Of a stretch of DNA of 64,000 nucleotides, positions 14,331-59,473 are shown piece after piece (positions within the stretch are counted from its first letter, which is position 1; the number at the start of each line of letters is the position of its first letter). The stretch comes from Escherichia phage ECD7: the sequence record NC_041936.1. One strand, written 5' to 3'. A program made the position numbers and the translations under genes. The notes under the pieces were generated by a model that saw only the letters and a list, made by a program, of their open reading frames with translations, did not search any database and was not told the origin of the DNA.

Positions 14331-14338
14331 TAAGCGAA

Positions 14339-14368
14339 AGGCGGGGATAATCCCCGCCTTTTTATTTT
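14339..14368 (+). terminator. rho-independent terminator downstream of gene 54
   Basis: AGGCGGGGATAATCCCCGCCT hairpin followed by TTTTTATTTT. Confidence 0.65.
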
Positions 14369-15680: not shown

Positions 15681-15720
15681 ATATAACAGAAAACGGGGCT
15701 AGTATAAAACTAGTCCCCGT
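15681..15720 (-). terminator. terminator-like hairpin between alt and alt-like gene
   Basis: ACGGGGCTAGT..ACTAGTCCCCGT long hairpin followed by T-rich run on minus strand. Confidence 0.45.
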
Positions 15721-15746
15721 TTGAGTCAACCATTATTTCTTAAAAA

Positions 15747-18077: not shown

Positions 18078-18143
18078 TTTGATACTCATTAGTAGTTCGT
18101 TTCGGTATGTGTGCATTATAGGGGATCACCGATCCCTTGTCAA
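18078..18143 (-). promoter_or_regulatory. early promoter cassette (PeSL-like) 1
   Basis: minus strand: TTGACA, 17-bp spacer containing inverted repeat GGGATCGGTGATCCCC, TATAAT, conserved leader ..CCGAAACGAAC.., then ATG. Confidence 0.6.
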
Positions 18144-18151
18144 CAACTTTT

Positions 18152-18670
18152 TTAGTTATTTTTTAATTGCTCATCTTGCAATAGGGCAATCACATGCTGG
18201 CGATGTTCTTCCGATTGAGGCACACCGAAAAAGTTTGTTTTGTAGAAATACTCTAATCGGTCTTCTCGTGTGCTCTCTTCCATCATGATCGCGGGTAGTC
18301 CGAGATTTCGGAAACGTCGCTTTTCTGCTGGCGTAAAATCACTGTAATACAGCATATAATCATCATTACCAGCAATGCTAAACTCATCCTTCATGAAAGA
18401 GAATATTGCGTTTAAACGCTGTTTACCGTCCACGATTTCGATTTCATAGCGAGAGCCATCATCAATCTTAGCCATTGCGATAGCACCAACCGGAAAATCA
18501 TTAATCAGGTTTTCGATAAACATACGTTTGTTTTCTGTGTCCCATACCAAAGGACGCTGATAATCTGGGTTCATGTTGATATAGCCATCTTCTAACCATG
18601 CTTCGTAAACAGAGATGACAAAGTTTTTAGTATTGGTATAGTAACGGCGTTTAGGCGTTAAACGGTTCAT
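18152..18670 (-). CDS. DUF262 (ParB/Srx-like nuclease/NTPase domain) protein
   Basis: motifs NPDYQRPLVW and DGKQRL are the DUF262 signature; start set to ATG (MNRLT..) with AGGAG SD, 1 nt after upstream stop. Confidence 0.6.
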   Translation of the reverse strand: MNRLTPKRRYYTNTKNFVISVYEAWLEDGYINMNPDYQRPLVWDTENKRMFIENLINDFPVGAIAMAKIDDGSRYEIEIVDGKQRLNAIFSFMKDEFSIAGNDDYMLYYSDFTPAEKRRFRNLGLPAIMMEESTREDRLEYFYKTNFFGVPQSEEHRQHVIALLQDEQLKNN

Positions 18671-18671
18671 A

Positions 18672-19001
18672 TTATAGTCTCCTGAATGGATCATCACGTA
18701 AATCAATATCTTTTAAGAACTCATCCCATGAATGGCGGATATTGTTCTTAATTCTCCAGATAAGCGCAGGGATTGAACGCTCTCCCATCTGGAAGTAAGG
18801 ATCATATGATCCGTATGCCCAATATGCTACTACAATTCCACAATCAGCGCAATAGTATTCTATTTCACTTGCTGGCGACCAAAGTCCATCAATATGATCA
18901 GTGATCTTGCTTTCGATGTTATGGCTATGACAATCAGGGCAACGGATGCAATGACCTTGTTTATCGTAATTTGACGTTAGAGAATACTTAAACAATCTCA
19001 T
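18672..19001 (-). CDS. zinc-ribbon-like hypothetical protein
   Basis: 109 aa, CIRCPDC...CADCG cysteine pairs. Confidence 0.5.
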   Translation of the reverse strand: MRLFKYSLTSNYDKQGHCIRCPDCHSHNIESKITDHIDGLWSPASEIEYYCADCGIVVAYWAYGSYDPYFQMGERSIPALIWRIKNNIRHSWDEFLKDIDLRDDPFRRL

Positions 19002-19717
19002 TATAGATCCTTATTGGCTTCAAATACTGCCTTTGCGAATCCTCGCGGCGTAAGTGACCTGATAGTCTTTGTTCTGGTTCCTTTCCCGCCTAGCTTAGAA
19101 TGCTGTTTGCTGTACCCTTTATTAATCTGCAACGGTTTCTTTTCTGGCATTATAAAGCCTTGTCCGGTCCATAAGCAAGTCTTTTTCGGGTACATATCAC
19201 GGGCGGCAATATACTCAGGAAACGTAGGATGCTTATCATCTTCCGGCAAATAACCGCCATATTCCCACGGATGGAACATGTAATCAGGCTTACGCCACAT
19301 ACTAGAGATAACGCTTACAGGATTCTCTATCATATAGGGAACTCCTAGCCATTCACCCAAATAAGCGGTTATTTTAGCTGCCCGTACATCATGAACTTGA
19401 ATCAATGGTCCTTGTTCTCGTTTCTTTCGTTCAAAGTGTGCAGCGCCACTAACAGCTAAATTGGTGCACGGTGGGAATGCAAATATAATATCCGGTTTCC
19501 CCCATTCAAGGTCCATTGCTCTTTCCAGCCAGTTCAAATCAATCCAGGTGTTTACATAGGTAATGTTTGGATGTTCAAATCTGGTATTATACTTTTTGTA
19601 TGTACCGTGGTCGGCGTCATCCGCATTAAAGCAGACTACCTTATGACCTGCTTTAGCCCATTCTAGCCCCATTATCCCCGATCCGTCAAAGTTGCAGAAT
19701 ATTAATTTTTGTTTCAT
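19001..19717 (-). CDS. compact C5-cytosine methyltransferase-like protein
   Basis: 238 aa; FCNFDGSGIMG (motif I-like FxGxG), DIIFAFPPCTNLAVSG (motif IV PC-like), MIENPVS (motif VI ENV-like); no obvious target-recognition domain. Confidence 0.55.
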   Translation of the reverse strand: MKQKLIFCNFDGSGIMGLEWAKAGHKVVCFNADDADHGTYKKYNTRFEHPNITYVNTWIDLNWLERAMDLEWGKPDIIFAFPPCTNLAVSGAAHFERKKREQGPLIQVHDVRAAKITAYLGEWLGVPYMIENPVSVISSMWRKPDYMFHPWEYGGYLPEDDKHPTFPEYIAARDMYPKKTCLWTGQGFIMPEKKPLQINKGYSKQHSKLGGKGTRTKTIRSLTPRGFAKAVFEANKDL

Positions 19718-20207: not shown

Positions 20208-20276
20208 TGTTTGATTCTCCTAAGTGGTATCTCGTCTTGATGGTTGTATTGTAGGGGAGTTATCCTCCCCTGTCAA
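20208..20276 (-). promoter_or_regulatory. early promoter cassette (PeSL-like) 2
   Basis: TTGACA, 17-bp spacer with palindrome GGGGAGGATAACTCCCC, TACAAT, leader, GGAGAATCAAACAATG. Confidence 0.55.
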
Positions 20277-20290
20277 CACTTTTTATAAAA

Positions 20291-20458
20291 TTATTTGTTA
20301 ATTTCTGGTGCGTTGCTCGGATAGTAACCTTCTTTAACGCCCAGGTATTTCGCAACCATCCCTACAATCTTCTGTGCTACTACAATGTCAAATTTCAGAT
20401 AATCTTCGCCGTGGGTTTCAATGATATATGCTTCACATGCTGCTTTAGTCTCGAACAT
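20291..20458 (-). CDS. hypothetical 55-aa protein (copy 1 of duplicated gene)
   Basis: read by eye: MFETKAACEAYIIETHGEDYLKFDIVVAQKIVGMVAKYLGVKEGYYPSNAPEINK; near-identical paralog at 23549-23716; own promoter cassette. Confidence 0.5.
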   Translation of the reverse strand: MFETKAACEAYIIETHGEDYLKFDIVVAQKIVGMVAKYLGVKEGYYPSNAPEINK

Positions 20459-20520
20459 TTTGATTCTCCTATTTCGTTTCGGTATGGGTGTATTATAGGG
20501 GATCTCCCGATCCCCGTCAA
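20459..20520 (-). promoter_or_regulatory. early promoter cassette (PeSL-like) 3
   Basis: TTGACG, spacer GGGGATCGGGAGATCCCC, TATAAT, leader CCGAAACGAAAT, GGAGAATCAAAATG. Confidence 0.6.
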
Positions 20521-20534
20521 CAACTTTTTTAAAA

Positions 20535-20816
20535 TTATTCGTGATTAGTTTCGATGTTGTGCATTTTGCACCAGTTCAGCCAATCGCCCAGATCTTGATA
20601 GTTGATGCTTTTATCTGCTGCCATCGTTTTTGTCTTGATACCCATATGTGCGTTATGAGTAAGCATTTTTACAGTGAACTCAATTTTATCGCCTTTAGCT
20701 TTAACATCAACCAGTTTGGTCCACTGGCTACCAGCGCCGCGAATGTTCATGCCAACGATGTTTCCGATGTATGCTTCTTTGTTTTTCAGGATTTCGGTTG
20801 CTTTGATGAATTTCAT
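20535..20816 (-). CDS. hypothetical small early protein
   Basis: 93 aa, promoter cassette upstream. Confidence 0.55.
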   Translation of the reverse strand: MKFIKATEILKNKEAYIGNIVGMNIRGAGSQWTKLVDVKAKGDKIEFTVKMLTHNAHMGIKTKTMAADKSINYQDLGDWLNWCKMHNIETNHE

Positions 20817-21248: not shown

Positions 21249-21274
21249 TAAAAAAGCCGACGCTATGGTCGGCT
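21249..21274 (-). terminator. rho-independent terminator
   Basis: AGCCGACCATAGCGTCGGCT hairpin followed by TTTTTTATT on minus strand. Confidence 0.6.
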
Positions 21275-21928: not shown

Positions 21929-22003
21929 AATTTGATTCTCCTAGTTAGAAAGTGTATCTCGTTTCGATGGGGATATTATGCTATACCCCCGATCTGGTGT
22001 CAA
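21929..22003 (-). promoter_or_regulatory. early promoter cassette 6
   Basis: TTGACA, 17 bp, CATAAT, leader ..CATCGAAACGAGATAC.., GGAGAATCAAATTATG. Confidence 0.55.
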
Positions 22004-23484: not shown

Positions 23485-23545
23485 TTTGATTCTCCGTTTG
23501 TTGTCTTGATGGGAGTATCTTACTACTCCCTTTAATCATTGTCAA
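23485..23545 (-). promoter_or_regulatory. early promoter cassette (PeSL-like) 7
   Basis: TTGACA, spacer then inverted repeat GGGAGTAGTAAGATACTCCC overlapping a TAAGAT -10, leader, GGAGAATCAAAATG. Confidence 0.5.
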
Positions 23546-23716: not shown

Positions 23717-23778
23717 TTTGATTCTCCTTTATCTCGTTGGTATGTGTGCATTATAGGGGATCACCGATCCCCTGTCAA
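23717..23778 (-). promoter_or_regulatory. early promoter cassette (PeSL-like) 8
   Basis: TTGACA, GGGGATCGGTGATCCCC, TATAAT, leader, GGAGAATCAAAATG; duplicated with cassette 3 together with its gene. Confidence 0.6.
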
Positions 23779-24342: not shown

Positions 24343-24663
24343 TCACACAAAATGGCGTGTCAATGCTTCTTTTGCGGTTCCGCTAAGACTTTCGATCTCG
24401 CCTGGCATAACATCAACCGCCAGAACTTCTACAACATCCTCGGACCCTAACCAGTGAGTATGGCCTTTGTAGAACTTGATAACCAGACTACCTTCCTCGT
24501 CCCATTTAACGCTATCGCTAGCCCACCACACATCACCGTCGATAAAGTTGATGTAAAGCACACTACGCAACATTGAATTAATTACTTTCAATACTGCGCC
24601 TTTCATCTCTTCCACGGTATGGTCTTCCATTTTGAAGACCATACCTACCTGAACTTTTGCCAT
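24343..24663 (-). CDS. HxHW-family small protein (paralog 6)
   Basis: 106 aa; ..LYINFIDGDVWW..KGHTHWLGSEDVVEVLAVDV.. Confidence 0.55.
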   Translation of the reverse strand: MAKVQVGMVFKMEDHTVEEMKGAVLKVINSMLRSVLYINFIDGDVWWASDSVKWDEEGSLVIKFYKGHTHWLGSEDVVEVLAVDVMPGEIESLSGTAKEALTRHFV

Positions 24664-24860: not shown

Positions 24861-24924
24861 GATTGATTCTCCTAGTTCGTTTCGGTATGTGTGTAGTATA
24901 GGGGATCTCCCGATCCCCTGTCAA
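24861..24924 (-). promoter_or_regulatory. early promoter cassette (PeSL-like) 9
   Basis: TTGACA, GGGGATCGGGAGATCCCC, TATACT, leader ..CCGAAACGAAC.., GGAGAATCAATCATG. Confidence 0.6.
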
Positions 24925-25245: not shown

Positions 25246-25319
25246 TTTTGATTCTCCGTTTAAGAAAGTGTGTTTCGTTTTGATGTGTGTAGTATAGGGG
25301 ATACGTGATCCCCTGTCAA
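25246..25319 (-). promoter_or_regulatory. early promoter cassette (PeSL-like) 10
   Basis: TTGACA, GGGGATCACGTATCCCC, TATACT, leader, GGAGAATCAAAAATG. Confidence 0.6.
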
Positions 25320-33729: not shown

Positions 33730-33799
33730 CTTGATACTCCTTAGTAAGTTAGTTTCGTTTCGATGGGGGTATATTACTACCCCCGTTCCATGCTGTCAA
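33730..33799 (-). promoter_or_regulatory. early promoter cassette (PeSL-like) 11
   Basis: TTGACA, spacer, GGGGGTAGTAATATACCCCC inverted repeat overlapping -10, leader CATCGAAACGAAAC. Confidence 0.5.
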
Positions 33800-34018: not shown

Positions 34019-34080
34019 TTTGATTCTCCTTTGTTTCGTTTCGATGGGAGTATCTTACTACCCCCGTTATTCAGTGTCAA
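34019..34080 (-). promoter_or_regulatory. early promoter cassette (PeSL-like) 12
   Basis: TTGACA, GGGGGTAGTAAGATACTCCC, leader CATCGAAACGAAAC, GGAGAATCAAAATG. Confidence 0.5.
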
Positions 34081-34370: not shown

Positions 34371-34396
34371 CAAAAAAGTCGCCACTATGGGCGACT
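34371..34396 (-). terminator. rho-independent terminator
   Basis: AGTCGCCCATAGTGGCGACT hairpin then TTTTTTGTTATT on minus strand. Confidence 0.6.
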
Positions 34397-34407
34397 TTGA
34401 ACAAACA

Positions 34408-36564: not shown

Positions 36565-36624
36565 AATAAAATCCTCACTTGTTTTTGATGGTTGTATTAT
36601 AGCGGGGATTTCTCCCCGCGTCAA
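36565..36624 (-). promoter_or_regulatory. early promoter cassette (PeSL-like) 14
   Basis: TTGACG, spacer with GCGGGGAGAAATCCCCGC palindrome, TATAAT, between nrdA and small genes. Confidence 0.5.
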
Positions 36625-41903: not shown

Positions 41904-41930
41904 ATAAAAAAGCCTCCCCGAAGGGAGGCT
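41904..41930 (-). terminator. rho-independent terminator downstream of gene 32
   Basis: AGCCTCCCTTCGGGGAGGCT hairpin then TTTTTTATT on minus strand. Confidence 0.65.
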
Positions 41931-59188: not shown

Positions 59189-59251
59189 AATATATTCCTC
59201 AATGTTTTGTCTTGATGGGAGTATCTTACTACTCCCTTAATCCGGTGTCAA
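59189..59251 (-). promoter_or_regulatory. early promoter cassette (PeSL-like) 17
   Basis: TTGACA, CCGGATTAAGGGAGTAG, TAAGAT with GGGAGTAGTAAGATACTCCC inverted repeat, leader CATCAAGACAAAAC. Confidence 0.5.
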
Positions 59252-59414: not shown

Positions 59415-59473
59415 TTTGATTCTCCTTCGTTGTCTTGATGGGTTTAGTATAGGGGATCGCCGATCCCCTGTCA
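59415..59473 (-). promoter_or_regulatory. early promoter cassette (PeSL-like) 18
   Basis: TTGACA, GGGGATCGGCGATCCCC, TATACT, leader, GGAGAATCAAAATG. Confidence 0.6.

What the first reader, a model, noticed from the sequence alone, without database searches (positions are those of the whole stretch)
20498..20514. Perfect GC-rich palindrome inside the promoter spacer: candidate operator
In most cassettes the 17-bp spacer between -35 and -10 is a perfect inverted repeat, for example GGGGATC-N3-GATCCCC at cassettes 1, 3, 8, 9, 10 and 18, or GGGAGTAGTAAGATACTCCC overlapping the -10 at cassettes 7, 11, 12 and 17. A palindrome between -35 and -10 is the classic position for a dimeric repressor operator, and the repeated GATC cores could also be Dam sites. 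This could let one phage or host factor switch the whole early accessory regulon. As RNA the element would only matter on read-through transcripts, where it could terminate or be cleaved.
Basis: inference. Interest (0 to 1): 0.6.

Follow-up and report, generated by a model that had tools for sequence, protein, structure and literature searches.

The report
Known phage promoter-terminator cassette (PeSL)
The GC-rich palindrome inside this phage promoter is the stem-loop of a "PeSL", a combined promoter-plus-terminator cassette described in RB49-like T4-type phages in 2010, so it is a real but already explained feature and not a new repressor operator.

Summary
The window is a Krischvirus (RB49/phi1/GEC-3S-like coliphage; 98% identical). 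The palindrome is real. On the minus strand it reads TTGACG-GGGATCGGGAGATCCCC-TATAAT: a 7-bp stem GGGGATC/GATCCCC with a 4-nt loop (not N3), and the first stem G is the last base of the -35.

It sits between the orthologues of phi1 ORF193 and ORF191. This is one of the "promoter-early stem-loop" (PeSL) cassettes of Arbiol et al. 2010 and Comeau et al. 2014. They are strong sigma70 promoters with an embedded G(n)-loop-C(n) hairpin that attenuates or terminates transcription arriving from upstream, and recombination between them shuffles ORFans.

My tests favour a sense-strand hairpin over an operator:
- Stem sequence, loop length (3-6 nt) and position (spacer, across the -10, or upstream of the -35) all vary within one genome.
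- Pairing is kept through compensatory changes and sense-strand G·U pairs.
- Embedded hairpins and canonical upstream terminators never occur in the same cassette.
- 38 of 41 hairpins end before the transcription start.
- GATC is found in only one stem family and is lost in phi1, RB49 and JK32 variants.

One caveat: the hairpins lack U-tracts, so the termination mechanism is non-canonical.

Verdict: already known, low interest.

The parts
20498..20515 (-). Flagged stem-loop GGGGATC-GGGA-GATCCCC (7-bp stem, GNRA-type loop on the gene strand). It fills the promoter spacer and shares its first G with the -35 hexamer.
   Evidence: RNA fold gives -16.7 kcal/mol for the 66-nt context, with the hairpin in both MFE and centroid structures.
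20515..20520 (-). -35 hexamer TTGACG
   Evidence: Annotated as minus_35_signal at the orthologous site in GEC-3S.
20492..20497 (-). -10 hexamer TATAAT. It also forms the U/A-rich tail immediately 3' of the hairpin on read-through RNA.
   Evidence: GEC-3S annotation.
20521..20537 (-). AT-rich UP-like tract (TAATTTTAAAAAAGTTG) that includes the stop codon of the upstream ORF193 orthologue. In published examples this is the zone where PeSL-PeSL crossovers occur.
   Evidence: RB49 differs from the window exactly upstream of this tract, because ORF192 is inserted there. PMC2839356 Fig. 3 legend.
20459..20491 (-). Conserved 5' leader ACACCCATACCGAAACGAAATAGGAGAATCAAA, with a GGAG Shine-Dalgarno, before the ATG.
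20291..20458 (-). Downstream ORFan (55 aa), the orthologue of phi1 ORF191. It has no Pfam match.
20535..20816 (-). Upstream ORFan (93 aa), the orthologue of phi1 ORF193. Its read-through transcript would contain the hairpin.
18122..18136 (-). Spacer-type PeSL hairpin GGGATC-GGT-GATCCC (cassette 18143).
   Evidence: Orthologues in four other phages carry a -10-overlap hairpin here instead.
20253..20271 (-). Spacer-type PeSL hairpin AGGGGAG-GATAA-CTCCCCT (cassette 20276).
23755..23773 (-). Spacer-type PeSL hairpin AGGGGATC-GGT-GATCCCCT (cassette 23778). It corresponds to PeSL206/205, whose promoter gave about 13,000 Miller units.
   Evidence: PMC2839356.
24900..24919 (-). Spacer-type PeSL hairpin AGGGGATC-GGGA-GATCCCCT in an 18-nt spacer (cassette 24924).
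25296..25314 (-). Spacer-type PeSL hairpin AGGGGAT-CACGT-ATCCCCT (cassette 25319). Its sequence is identical to the stem-loop of RB49 PeSL211/210, which was tested as a terminator.
   Evidence: PMC2839356.
36602..36619 (-). Spacer-type PeSL hairpin GCGGGGA-GAAA-TCCCCGC (cassette 36624).
59451..59469 (-). Spacer-type PeSL hairpin AGGGGATC-GGC-GATCCCCT (cassette 59474).
23511..23530 (-). Hairpin overlapping the -10: GGGAGTA-GTAAGA-TACTCCC (cassette 23545).
59217..59236 (-). Hairpin overlapping the -10: GGGAGTA-GTAAGA-TACTCCC (cassette 59251).
33765..33784 (-). Hairpin overlapping the -10: GGGGGTA-GTAATA-TACCCCC (cassette 33799). Relative to GGGAGTA/TACTCCC it is a compensatory variant.
34046..34065 (-). 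Hairpin overlapping the -10: GGGGGTA-GTAAGA-TACTCCC, with a G·U pair on the gene strand (cassette 34080).
21969..21990 (-). Hairpin overlapping the -10: GGGGGTAT-AGCATA-ATATCCCC, with a G·U pair (cassette 22003). Orthologues are GGGGATAT/ATATCCCC or GGGTGTAT/ATACACCC.
15691..15722 (-). Long hairpin spanning the -10 of the cassette upstream of ORF183 and followed by a T-run. It is both a terminator shape and a promoter.
21255..21274 (-). Canonical hairpin plus T-run immediately upstream of the -35 of cassette 21224, whose spacer has no conserved hairpin.
   Evidence: Annotated as a terminator in GEC-3S.
34375..34398 (-). Canonical hairpin plus T-run upstream of the -35 of cassette 34360 (no spacer hairpin).
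41911..41930 (-). Canonical hairpin (CUUCGG loop) plus T-run upstream of the -35 of cassette 41878 (no spacer hairpin).

Best explanation
The palindrome is the stem-loop of a PeSL (promoter-early stem-loop), the composite promoter/terminator cassette of RB49-like (Krischvirus) phages. The flagged copy is the single PeSL between the orthologues of phi1 ORF193 and ORF191.

The cassette works as a compact insulator. Host sigma70 RNA polymerase starts a new early transcript at TTGACG-N17-TATAAT. The GC-rich inverted repeat packed into the spacer lies upstream of that start, so it is never part of the cassette's own mRNA. It is transcribed only by polymerases arriving from the upstream ORFan. On that read-through RNA it folds into a 7-bp hairpin followed by UAUAAU (the -10 box), which terminates or attenuates the upstream transcript. 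Each small ORFan therefore carries its own start and stop signals in about 75 bp of intergenic DNA. Because about 50 near-identical cassettes are scattered through the hyperplastic regions, they also serve as homology patches for recombination that inserts, deletes or swaps ORFans.

Shown here: identity and orthology, hairpin conservation by covariation, the sense-strand G·U bias, the exclusive distribution of embedded hairpins and canonical terminators, and exclusion of the hairpin from the cassette's own transcript.
Shown in the literature: promoter strength, terminator activity of one spacer-type stem-loop, and minicircle formation.
Inferred: that the flagged copy itself terminates, and by what mechanism, since it has no U-tract.
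For: Identity:
- The window is 98.3% identical to GEC-3S and 98.2% to phi1 over 3 kb.
- The site lies between the orthologues of ORF193 and ORF191, the exact locus of Fig. 3 of Arbiol et al. 2010.
- RB49 has ORF192 inserted here, flanked by two PeSLs.
- GEC-3S annotates the orthologous promoter.

Published function (PMC2839356):
- PeSLs are sigma70-consensus promoters with an AT-rich upstream region and a polyG/polyC stem-loop. Five positional subclasses are described.
- The stem-loop of PeSL211/210 reduced lacZ about as much as rrnB T1. Its sequence is identical to the window hairpin at 25296-25314.
- PeSL206/205, which corresponds to window 23750-23778, gave about 13,000 Miller units.

My tests:
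- Across 11 Krischvirus genomes or fragments the stems vary but stay paired. The -10-overlap subfamilies are 99-100% paired. Three stem positions changed on both sides, with G·U intermediates.
- There are 6 G·U variants on the gene-sense strand against 1 A·C. Sense folds are 2-5 kcal/mol more stable than antisense folds for those variants.
- Embedded hairpins and canonical upstream terminators are mutually exclusive. In the window the counts are 5 of 8 against 0 of 14, Fisher P = 0.002. In the whole LF73P4 genome they are 6 of 21 against 0 of 28, P = 0.004.
- 38 of 41 embedded hairpins end at or before position -1.
- Nearly all GC-rich perfect hairpins in the window are either promoter-embedded (11) or classic terminators (about 14). 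The two groups share stems such as GCGGGGA/TCCCCGC.
Against: - The hairpins lack the U-tract of a canonical intrinsic terminator. The 8 nt after the stem usually contain only 1-2 T, and a consensus terminator scan does not call them.
- Terminator activity has been shown for only one spacer-type stem-loop, in a plasmid reporter. It has not been shown for the flagged copy or for the -10-overlap class.
- A drop in lacZ could also reflect RNA processing or instability, not release of the polymerase.
- The G·U asymmetry rests on 7 non-independent variants (binomial P = 0.06).
- Paralogous copies spread by recombination, so 'covariation' may partly reflect exchange of whole modules, not independent compensatory mutations.
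Confidence: 0.85

Rival explanations
1. Operator model: the palindrome is the duplex-DNA binding site of a dimeric phage or host repressor. The repressor sits between -35 and -10 and switches the early ORFan regulon off together.
For: - The position between -35 and -10 is a classical operator position.
- A GGGG...CCCC core recurs in many cassettes.
- Arbiol et al. themselves speculated that this motif might be bound by a specific DNA-binding protein, though for recombination.
- Krischvirus lacks MotA (PMC1524935). I found no T4 AsiA homologue in a complete Krischvirus genome by tblastn (best E = 3.1). How these -35-dependent promoters are shut off is therefore not explained by what I examined.
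Against: - No conserved half-site. Within a single genome the arms are GGGGATC, GGGGAG, GGGGAT, GCGGGGA, GGGAGTA, GGGGGTA, GGGTGTAT and others.
- The spacing between arms varies from 3 to 6 nt.
- The element sits in the spacer in some cassettes, across the -10 in about as many (19 against 19 of 41), or is replaced by a terminator upstream of the -35.
- Natural variants break dyad symmetry but keep a sense-strand G·U pair.
- 21 of 49 cassettes in LF73P4 have no embedded hairpin.
- No cognate repressor is known.
Confidence: 0.05
2. Dam-switch model: the two GATC cores make promoter activity depend on adenine methylation by host or phage Dam.
For: - The GGGGATC...GATCCCC family places two GATC sites in the spacer.
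- GATC is about 2.4-fold denser in cassette cores than in the window as a whole (14 in 1,058 bp against 5.6 per kb).
- Krischvirus LF73P4 encodes a D12-class N6-adenine methyltransferase (PF02086, 104.7 bits).
Against: - GATC belongs to one stem family only. The GGGGAG, GCGGGGA, GGGAGTA, GGGGGTA and GGGTGTAT hairpins have none.
- The phi1 orthologue of the flagged site, and the RB49 and JK32 variants, read GGGGGTC. They lose a GATC while keeping a G·U pair.
- The 25319 cassette has only one GATC.
- GATC is common genome-wide: 356 sites in the window against 231-256 expected.
Confidence: 0.03
3. DNA-level model: the inverted repeat acts mainly in DNA. It would be a hairpin or cruciform, or a protein-recognised site, that stimulates the recombination responsible for PeSL-mediated ORFan shuffling. 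Any effect on RNA would be secondary.
For: - PeSLs flank indels between related phages, and minicircles form by PeSL-PeSL crossovers.
- I saw a module swap at cassette 18143.
- The loop is flipped exactly, GGT to ACC, between orthologous hairpins. This is the signature of events across the inverted repeat.
- The authors raised this possibility.
Against: - Mapped crossovers lie in the AT-rich region, or between the -10 and the Shine-Dalgarno or ATG, not in the stem-loop.
- Ordinary homologous recombination over about 100 bp of shared sequence is sufficient to explain them.
- The G·U bias on the sense strand, and the exclusive distribution of embedded hairpins and conventional terminators, point to a transcript-level role.
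- Stems of 6-8 bp are short for cruciform extrusion (general knowledge).
Confidence: 0.07

Closest known systems
PeSL (promoter-early stem-loop) cassettes of RB49/phi1 (Arbiol et al. 2010, Genome Biol Evol 2:140, PMC2839356; Comeau et al. 2014, PMC4122927)
   Same: It matches in every respect tested.
- Same phage genus and orthologous locus (the ORF193/ORF191 junction).
- TTGACA-N17-TATAAT promoter with an AT-rich upstream tract.
- G(n)-loop-C(n) stem-loop between -35 and -10, the commonest of the five published subclasses.
- Shine-Dalgarno and ATG of an ORFan downstream.
- Many copies in the hyperplastic regions.
- Association with indels between related phages.
   Different: Nothing essential differs. 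This copy has a GGGA loop and TTGACG as its -35. It is the 'fused' phi1-type PeSL, not the two RB49 PeSLs that flank ORF192.
Rho-independent (intrinsic) terminators of E. coli and T4-type phages
   Same: A GC-rich hairpin of -13 to -15 kcal/mol lies immediately downstream of a stop codon. Stems are shared with genuine terminators in the same window (e.g. GCGGGGA/TCCCCGC at 14337-14361). The published reporter shows strong attenuation.
   Different: There is no U-tract. The tail is UAUAAUAC, or AUCAAGAC for the -10-overlap class. The hairpin is superimposed on a promoter, not placed before one.
Repressor operators located in promoter spacers (e.g. lac O1-type engineered spacers, LexA or phage-repressor operators overlapping -35/-10)
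   Same: An inverted repeat lies between or over the promoter hexamers.
   Different: Half-site sequence, half-site spacing and position are not conserved across the regulated promoters. No cognate protein is known. Variants retain RNA-type G·U pairing, not DNA dyad symmetry.
Morons of lambdoid phages and integron cassettes
   Same: Each is a self-contained unit of promoter, small accessory gene and terminator that can be gained or lost as a whole. The original authors draw this comparison.
   Different: In PeSLs the shared regulatory element is itself the recombination substrate. No integrase or attC-type site is involved. The promoter and terminator overlap physically.

Membership tests
PeSL (promoter-early stem-loop) of RB49-like phages | [quoted passage not shown] | tested here: met
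   TTGACG-N17-TATAAT preceded by AATAATTTTAAAAAAGTTG.
PeSL (promoter-early stem-loop) of RB49-like phages | Stable stem-loop, typically polyG...polyC, located between -35 and -10, overlapping either box, or just flanking the promoter | tested here: met
   GGGGATC-GGGA-GATCCCC in the spacer. The hairpin is present in the MFE and centroid folds.
PeSL (promoter-early stem-loop) of RB49-like phages | Intergenic position: the stop codon of the upstream gene lies in the AT-rich tract, and a Shine-Dalgarno and start codon of a (usually ORFan) gene lie downstream | tested here: met
   The TAA of the 93-aa ORF is 14 nt upstream of the -35. GGAG and the ATG of the 55-aa ORF lie 33 nt after the -10. Neither ORF has a Pfam match.
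PeSL (promoter-early stem-loop) of RB49-like phages | Repeated about 50 times per genome, concentrated in hyperplastic regions | tested here: met
   About 22 cassettes in the 64-kb window, clustered at 15.7-25.3 kb. 49 cassettes, 28 with embedded hairpins, in the complete LF73P4 genome. The published counts are 52 and 51.
PeSL (promoter-early stem-loop) of RB49-like phages | Orthology to a named PeSL in RB49/phi1 | tested here: met
   Identical or nearly identical sequence at the ORF193/ORF191 junction of phi1, GEC-3S, JEP8 and ELT3, and at ORF192/191 of RB49.
PeSL (promoter-early stem-loop) of RB49-like phages | Association with insertions, deletions or replacements between closely related phages | tested here: met
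   RB49 carries ORF192 inserted at this PeSL, and the sequences diverge exactly in the AT-rich tract. There is a module swap at cassette 18143.
PeSL (promoter-early stem-loop) of RB49-like phages | Promoter activity and terminator/attenuator activity in vivo | not testable with these tools
   Published for PeSL206/205, PeSL193/192 (promoter) and the PeSL211/210 stem-loop (terminator). Not measured for this copy.
Dimeric-repressor operator | Conserved half-site sequence shared by the co-regulated promoters | tested here: not met
   At least eight different arm sequences occur within one genome.
Dimeric-repressor operator | Fixed spacing between half-sites and fixed position relative to the promoter hexamers | tested here: not met
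   Loops of 3, 4, 5 and 6 nt. Hairpin 3' ends fall in two registers 11-13 nt apart, and some cassettes have the hairpin upstream of the -35 instead.
Dimeric-repressor operator | A cognate DNA-binding protein | not testable with these tools
   None is known. The flanking ORFans have no Pfam match. The authors only speculate about a binder.
Canonical intrinsic (Rho-independent) terminator | GC-rich hairpin directly followed by a U-tract | tested here: not met
   The hairpin is present, but the tail is UAUAAUAC. Most embedded hairpins have 1-2 T in the next 8 nt. The consensus terminator scan does not call them.
Dam-regulated promoter | GATC sites conserved at the regulatory position across orthologues and co-regulated promoters | tested here: not met
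   The phi1, RB49 and JK32 variants read GGTC. Most other hairpin families have no GATC.
Rfam RNA families | Match to a curated covariance model at gathering score | tested here: not met
   0 matches in the whole window.

The most novel reading that the evidence does not exclude
Besides attenuating read-through transcription, the GGGG...CCCC stem-loops might be recognised by a still unidentified Krischvirus factor. It could recognise the duplex, an extruded hairpin, or the RNA. Such a factor might turn off the hairpin-bearing early promoters or target recombination to them.

This would fill a gap. These phages lack MotA, and a complete Krischvirus genome showed no detectable T4 AsiA homologue by tblastn. 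I therefore could not account for how their -35-dependent early promoters are shut off.
Probability: 0.08. Interest if true: 0.6.

Novelty: already known. Interest (0 to 1): 0.1.

Why it matters
It matters little as a discovery, because the element, its architecture and its main functions were published in 2010 and 2014 for this phage group.

It is still a neat case of extreme regulatory compaction. A terminator hairpin is nested inside the spacer of the next promoter, so each accessory gene is an insulated and mobile expression unit.

What remains open:
- how hairpins without U-tracts stop or attenuate transcription;
- whether the -10-overlap class behaves like the one spacer-type hairpin that was tested;
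- how early promoters are shut off in a T4-type phage that lacks MotA and has no detectable AsiA.

Tried and rejected
The first was reused only as a background set of promoters.
- The search for related loci with the 238-aa ORF189 orthologue returned a single Krischvirus contig. I therefore took relatives from the GenBank phage collection.
- Desplats et al. [quoted passage not shown] The supplementary figure with the lacZ values is not held either.
- Rfam found nothing in the window.
- A literature search found no later functional work on PeSL mechanism. A 2026 paper on Krischvirus DNA modification had nothing on GATC.
- The operator and Dam readings were considered and rejected for the reasons given under rival explanations.
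- I considered that the 6-bp GTGTAT/ATACAC pairing in cassette 21224 is a functional hairpin. I rejected this because the orthologues lack it and the cassette has a canonical upstream terminator.
- The AsiA search is limited to tblastn with T4 AsiA against one complete Krischvirus genome and a sampled listing of phage hits. A very divergent homologue would be missed.

Full report
**1. What is at the coordinates**

The genes around the finding are on the minus strand. Read on that strand, the sequence is AATAATTTTAAAAAAGTTG-TTGACG-GGGATCGGGAGATCCCC-TATAAT-ACACCCATACCGAAACGAAATAGGAGAATCAAA-ATG.
- The -35 is at 20520-20515, the 17-nt spacer at 20514-20498 and the -10 at 20497-20492.
- The perfect inverted repeat is GGGGATC / GATCCCC with a 4-nt loop GGGA, not N3. 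It spans 20498-20515, because its first G is the last base of TTGACG.
- The upstream 93-aa ORF stops 14 nt before the -35. A 55-aa ORF starts 33 nt after the -10.

**2. How general the feature is, and whether it exceeds chance**

A relaxed promoter search found 26 TTGAC-N18-TATAAT-type matches where 2.5 are expected. Restricting to sites followed by a Shine-Dalgarno, a start codon and an ORF leaves about 22-23 real cassettes, almost all on the minus strand. They fall into four groups.

| Group | Number | Cassettes (first T of the -35) |
|---|---|---|
| Hairpin in the spacer | 8 | 18143, 20276, 20520, 23778, 24924, 25319, 36624, 59474 |
| Hairpin across the -10 | 6 | 15729, 22003, 23545, 33799, 34080, 59251 |
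| Canonical hairpin plus T-run just upstream of the -35, no spacer hairpin | 5 | 2243, 21224, 34360, 41878, 59755 |
| No hairpin | 3 | 1671, 20878, 42957 |

There are six GGGGAT(C)-type cassettes and four of the GGG(A/G)GTA type, though the loops and some stems differ from the examples quoted.
- A random 19-mer contains a perfect stem of at least 6 bp with probability 0.004-0.006. Eight or more of 23 has P about 4e-13. The copies are paralogues, so the P value overstates independence.
- As an outside control, none of 131 promoters matching GTTGTTGACA-N17-TATA in unrelated phage contigs had a GC-rich stem of at least 6 bp.
- Of the 28 distinct GC-rich perfect hairpins in the window, 11 are promoter-embedded and about 14 are ordinary terminators with T-runs. 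Only three lie elsewhere.

**3. Identity**

The window is a Krischvirus.
- A 3-kb stretch around the site is 98.3% identical to GEC-3S and 98.2% to phi1. 57 RB49-like records match it.
- In GEC-3S the orthologous site is annotated as a promoter with -35 and -10 signals.
- In phi1 the site lies between ORF193 and ORF191.
- In RB49 an extra gene, ORF192, is inserted here, flanked by two cassettes.

This is the locus Arbiol et al. 2010 (PMC2839356) used to illustrate "promoter-early stem-loops" (PeSLs). That paper describes:
- about 50 copies per genome of a motif made of an AT-rich tract, a consensus sigma70 promoter and a stable polyG/polyC stem-loop;
- five subclasses defined by where the stem-loop sits, with 'between -35 and -10' and 'overlapping the -10' the commonest.

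The experimental results reported there:
- The stem-loop of PeSL211/210, placed between a strong promoter and lacZ, cut expression about as much as rrnB T1. By my alignment that stem-loop (GGGGATCACGTATCCCC) is identical to window 25296-25314.
- PeSL206/205, which corresponds to window 23750-23778 and carries GGGGATC-N3-GATCCCC, gave about 13,000 Miller units in uninfected E. coli.
- Most cloned PeSLs picked up -35 or -10 point mutations, which implies toxic promoter strength.
- Recombination between PeSLs generates indels and encapsidated minicircles.

Comeau et al. 2014 (PMC4122927) extended PeSLs to T4/PST and KVP40/nt-1 and called them composite promoter-terminator motifs. The finding is therefore already known.

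**4. Operator or transcript hairpin**

I compared the window with GEC-3S, phi1, RB49, JEP8, ELT3, JK32, UPWr_E1, JSE, one IMG/VR contig and the complete LF73P4 genome.

(a) Sequence, spacing and position all vary within a single genome.
- Arms include GGGGATC, GGGGAG, GGGGAT, GCGGGGA, GGGAGTA, GGGGGTA, GGGTGTAT, GGGGATAT and GCGGTTAT.
- Loops are 3-6 nt.
- In 41 embedded hairpins, the 3' end falls in the spacer in 19 cases, exactly 6 nt after the -10 in 19, and further downstream in 3.

(b) Pairing is preserved through change.
- In the two -10-overlap subfamilies, 99% and 100% of cells are paired.
- Three stem positions changed on both sides: A-U to G-C, U-A to G-C, and G-C to A-U. G·U intermediates are present.
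- Slid controls give only 30-74% pairing.
- The selection patterns I used left the variable positions free, so they did not enforce complementarity.

(c) Imperfect variants are biased towards the gene strand.
- Six variants carry a G·U pair on the gene-sense strand and one carries A·C. For those six, the sense fold is 2-5 kcal/mol more stable than the antisense fold.
- One of the six is the phi1 orthologue of the flagged site, GGGGGTC-GGGA-GATCCCC. It breaks the DNA dyad and removes a GATC.
- The bias is suggestive only (binomial P = 0.06).

(d) Embedded hairpins and conventional terminators do not co-occur.
- In the window, 5 of 8 cassettes without an embedded hairpin have a hairpin plus T-run immediately upstream of the -35. 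None of the 14 cassettes with an embedded hairpin does (Fisher P = 0.002).
- In the whole LF73P4 genome the figures are 6 of 21 and 0 of 28 (P = 0.004).

(e) The hairpin is kept out of the cassette's own mRNA. 38 of 41 embedded hairpins end at or before -1.

(f) At cassette 18143 the window has a spacer-type hairpin, whereas four relatives have a -10-overlap hairpin in front of the same downstream gene. What is retained is 'a hairpin somewhere in the promoter', not a specific site.

Together these results argue for a structure formed by the sense strand of read-through transcripts. They argue against a sequence-specific duplex operator.

**5. Dam**
- GATC occurs in only one stem family.
- It is lost in natural variants in phi1, RB49 and JK32.
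- It is abundant across the window: 356 sites against 231-256 expected.
- Krischvirus LF73P4 does encode a Dam-family methyltransferase (PF02086), so the sites are probably methylated. Nothing indicates that this is regulatory.

**6. Caveats on mechanism**
- The embedded hairpins are not canonical intrinsic terminators. The tail of the spacer class is the -10 box itself (UAUAAU/UAUACU). The tail of the -10-overlap class is AUCGAAAC or AUCAAGAC. Most have only 1-2 T in the next 8 nt, and a consensus terminator scan ignores them.
- Attenuation has been shown for only one spacer-type stem-loop, in a reporter.
- Whether the effect is polymerase release, pausing or RNA processing is unresolved.
- The flagged hairpin on its own is modest. 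The 66-nt context folds at -16.7 kcal/mol, z = -2.0.

**7. What stays open**

RB49 has no MotA or middle promoters (PMC1524935). I found no T4 AsiA homologue in a complete Krischvirus genome by tblastn (best E = 3.1), nor any Krischvirus record in a spread listing of 1,169 AsiA-positive phage records. How these strongly -35-dependent promoters are shut off is therefore not accounted for by what I examined. Arbiol et al. themselves wondered whether GGGG...CCCC is bound by a protein. I give that reading a low probability because of points (a) to (f).

**8. Verdict**

The operator and Dam interpretation is not supported. The element is a textbook member of an already described family, so novelty is 'already known' and interest is low.

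Noticed in passing
window 23755-23773 and 24900-24919, compared with L002 (phi1), L001 (GEC-3S), L241 (RB49), L242 (JEP8), L243 (ELT3): Orthologous PeSL hairpins differ by an exact flip of the loop: GGGGATC-GGT-GATCCCC against GGGGATC-ACC-GATCCCC, which are reverse complements of each other. These are small inversions across the inverted repeat, and they suggest DNA-level hairpin or template-switch events at these sites.
   Followed up: partly
window 18100-18180 (cassette 18143): The window has a spacer-type hairpin and a different 3' end of the upstream gene. phi1, RB49, JEP8 and ELT3 instead have a -10-overlap hairpin (GGGTGTAT-ATCATA-ATACACCC) in front of the same downstream gene. This is a promoter-module swap whose junction lies inside the PeSL.
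   Followed up: partly
window 24616-24645: A perfect 12-bp hairpin, GGTATGGTCTTC-N6-GAAGACCATACC, lies inside the 5' end of the minus-strand ORF 24343-24663. It is the longest perfect inverted repeat in the window and sits within a coding sequence. It is unexplained.
   Followed up: no
window cassettes 18143, 20520, 20878, 23778, 24924 and others (about 33 nt after each -10): Unrelated ORFans share a nearly identical 5' leader, ACAC(A/C)CATACCGAAACGAA...GGAGAATCAAA-ATG. PeSL conservation therefore extends through the whole untranslated region and a GGAG Shine-Dalgarno.
   Followed up: no
window 14337-14361, 36602-36619 and 41911-41930: The bidirectional terminator between the convergent genes at 14337-14361 uses the same GCGGGGA/TCCCCGC stem as the promoter-embedded hairpin at 36602-36619. 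The terminator at 41911-41930 has a CUUCGG tetraloop on the gene strand.
   Followed up: no
LF73P4 complete genome (L245, L249-L252); Dam-like ORF at L250:30835-31644: No T4 AsiA homologue was detectable by tblastn in a complete Krischvirus genome (best E = 3.1). A D12-class N6-adenine DNA methyltransferase (PF02086, 104.7 bits) lies about 9 kb beyond the region that corresponds to the window.
   Followed up: partly
window 19001-19717 (-): The 238-aa ORF189 orthologue is annotated in some GenBank records as a DNA methyltransferase, Dcm or C-5 cytosine methylase. It has no Pfam match at E <= 0.01.
   Followed up: partly
window, whole: GATC is over-represented across the window: 356 sites against 231 (mononucleotide model) or 256 (first-order Markov model) expected.
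   Followed up: no
L035:1648 and L091:10299 (IMG/VR contigs, unrelated phages): A GTTGTTGACA promoter has the AT-rich palindrome TATACTTATATAAGTATA in its spacer, and the same palindrome again just upstream of the -35. This looks like a genuine duplicated operator, in contrast to the PeSL hairpins.
   Followed up: no
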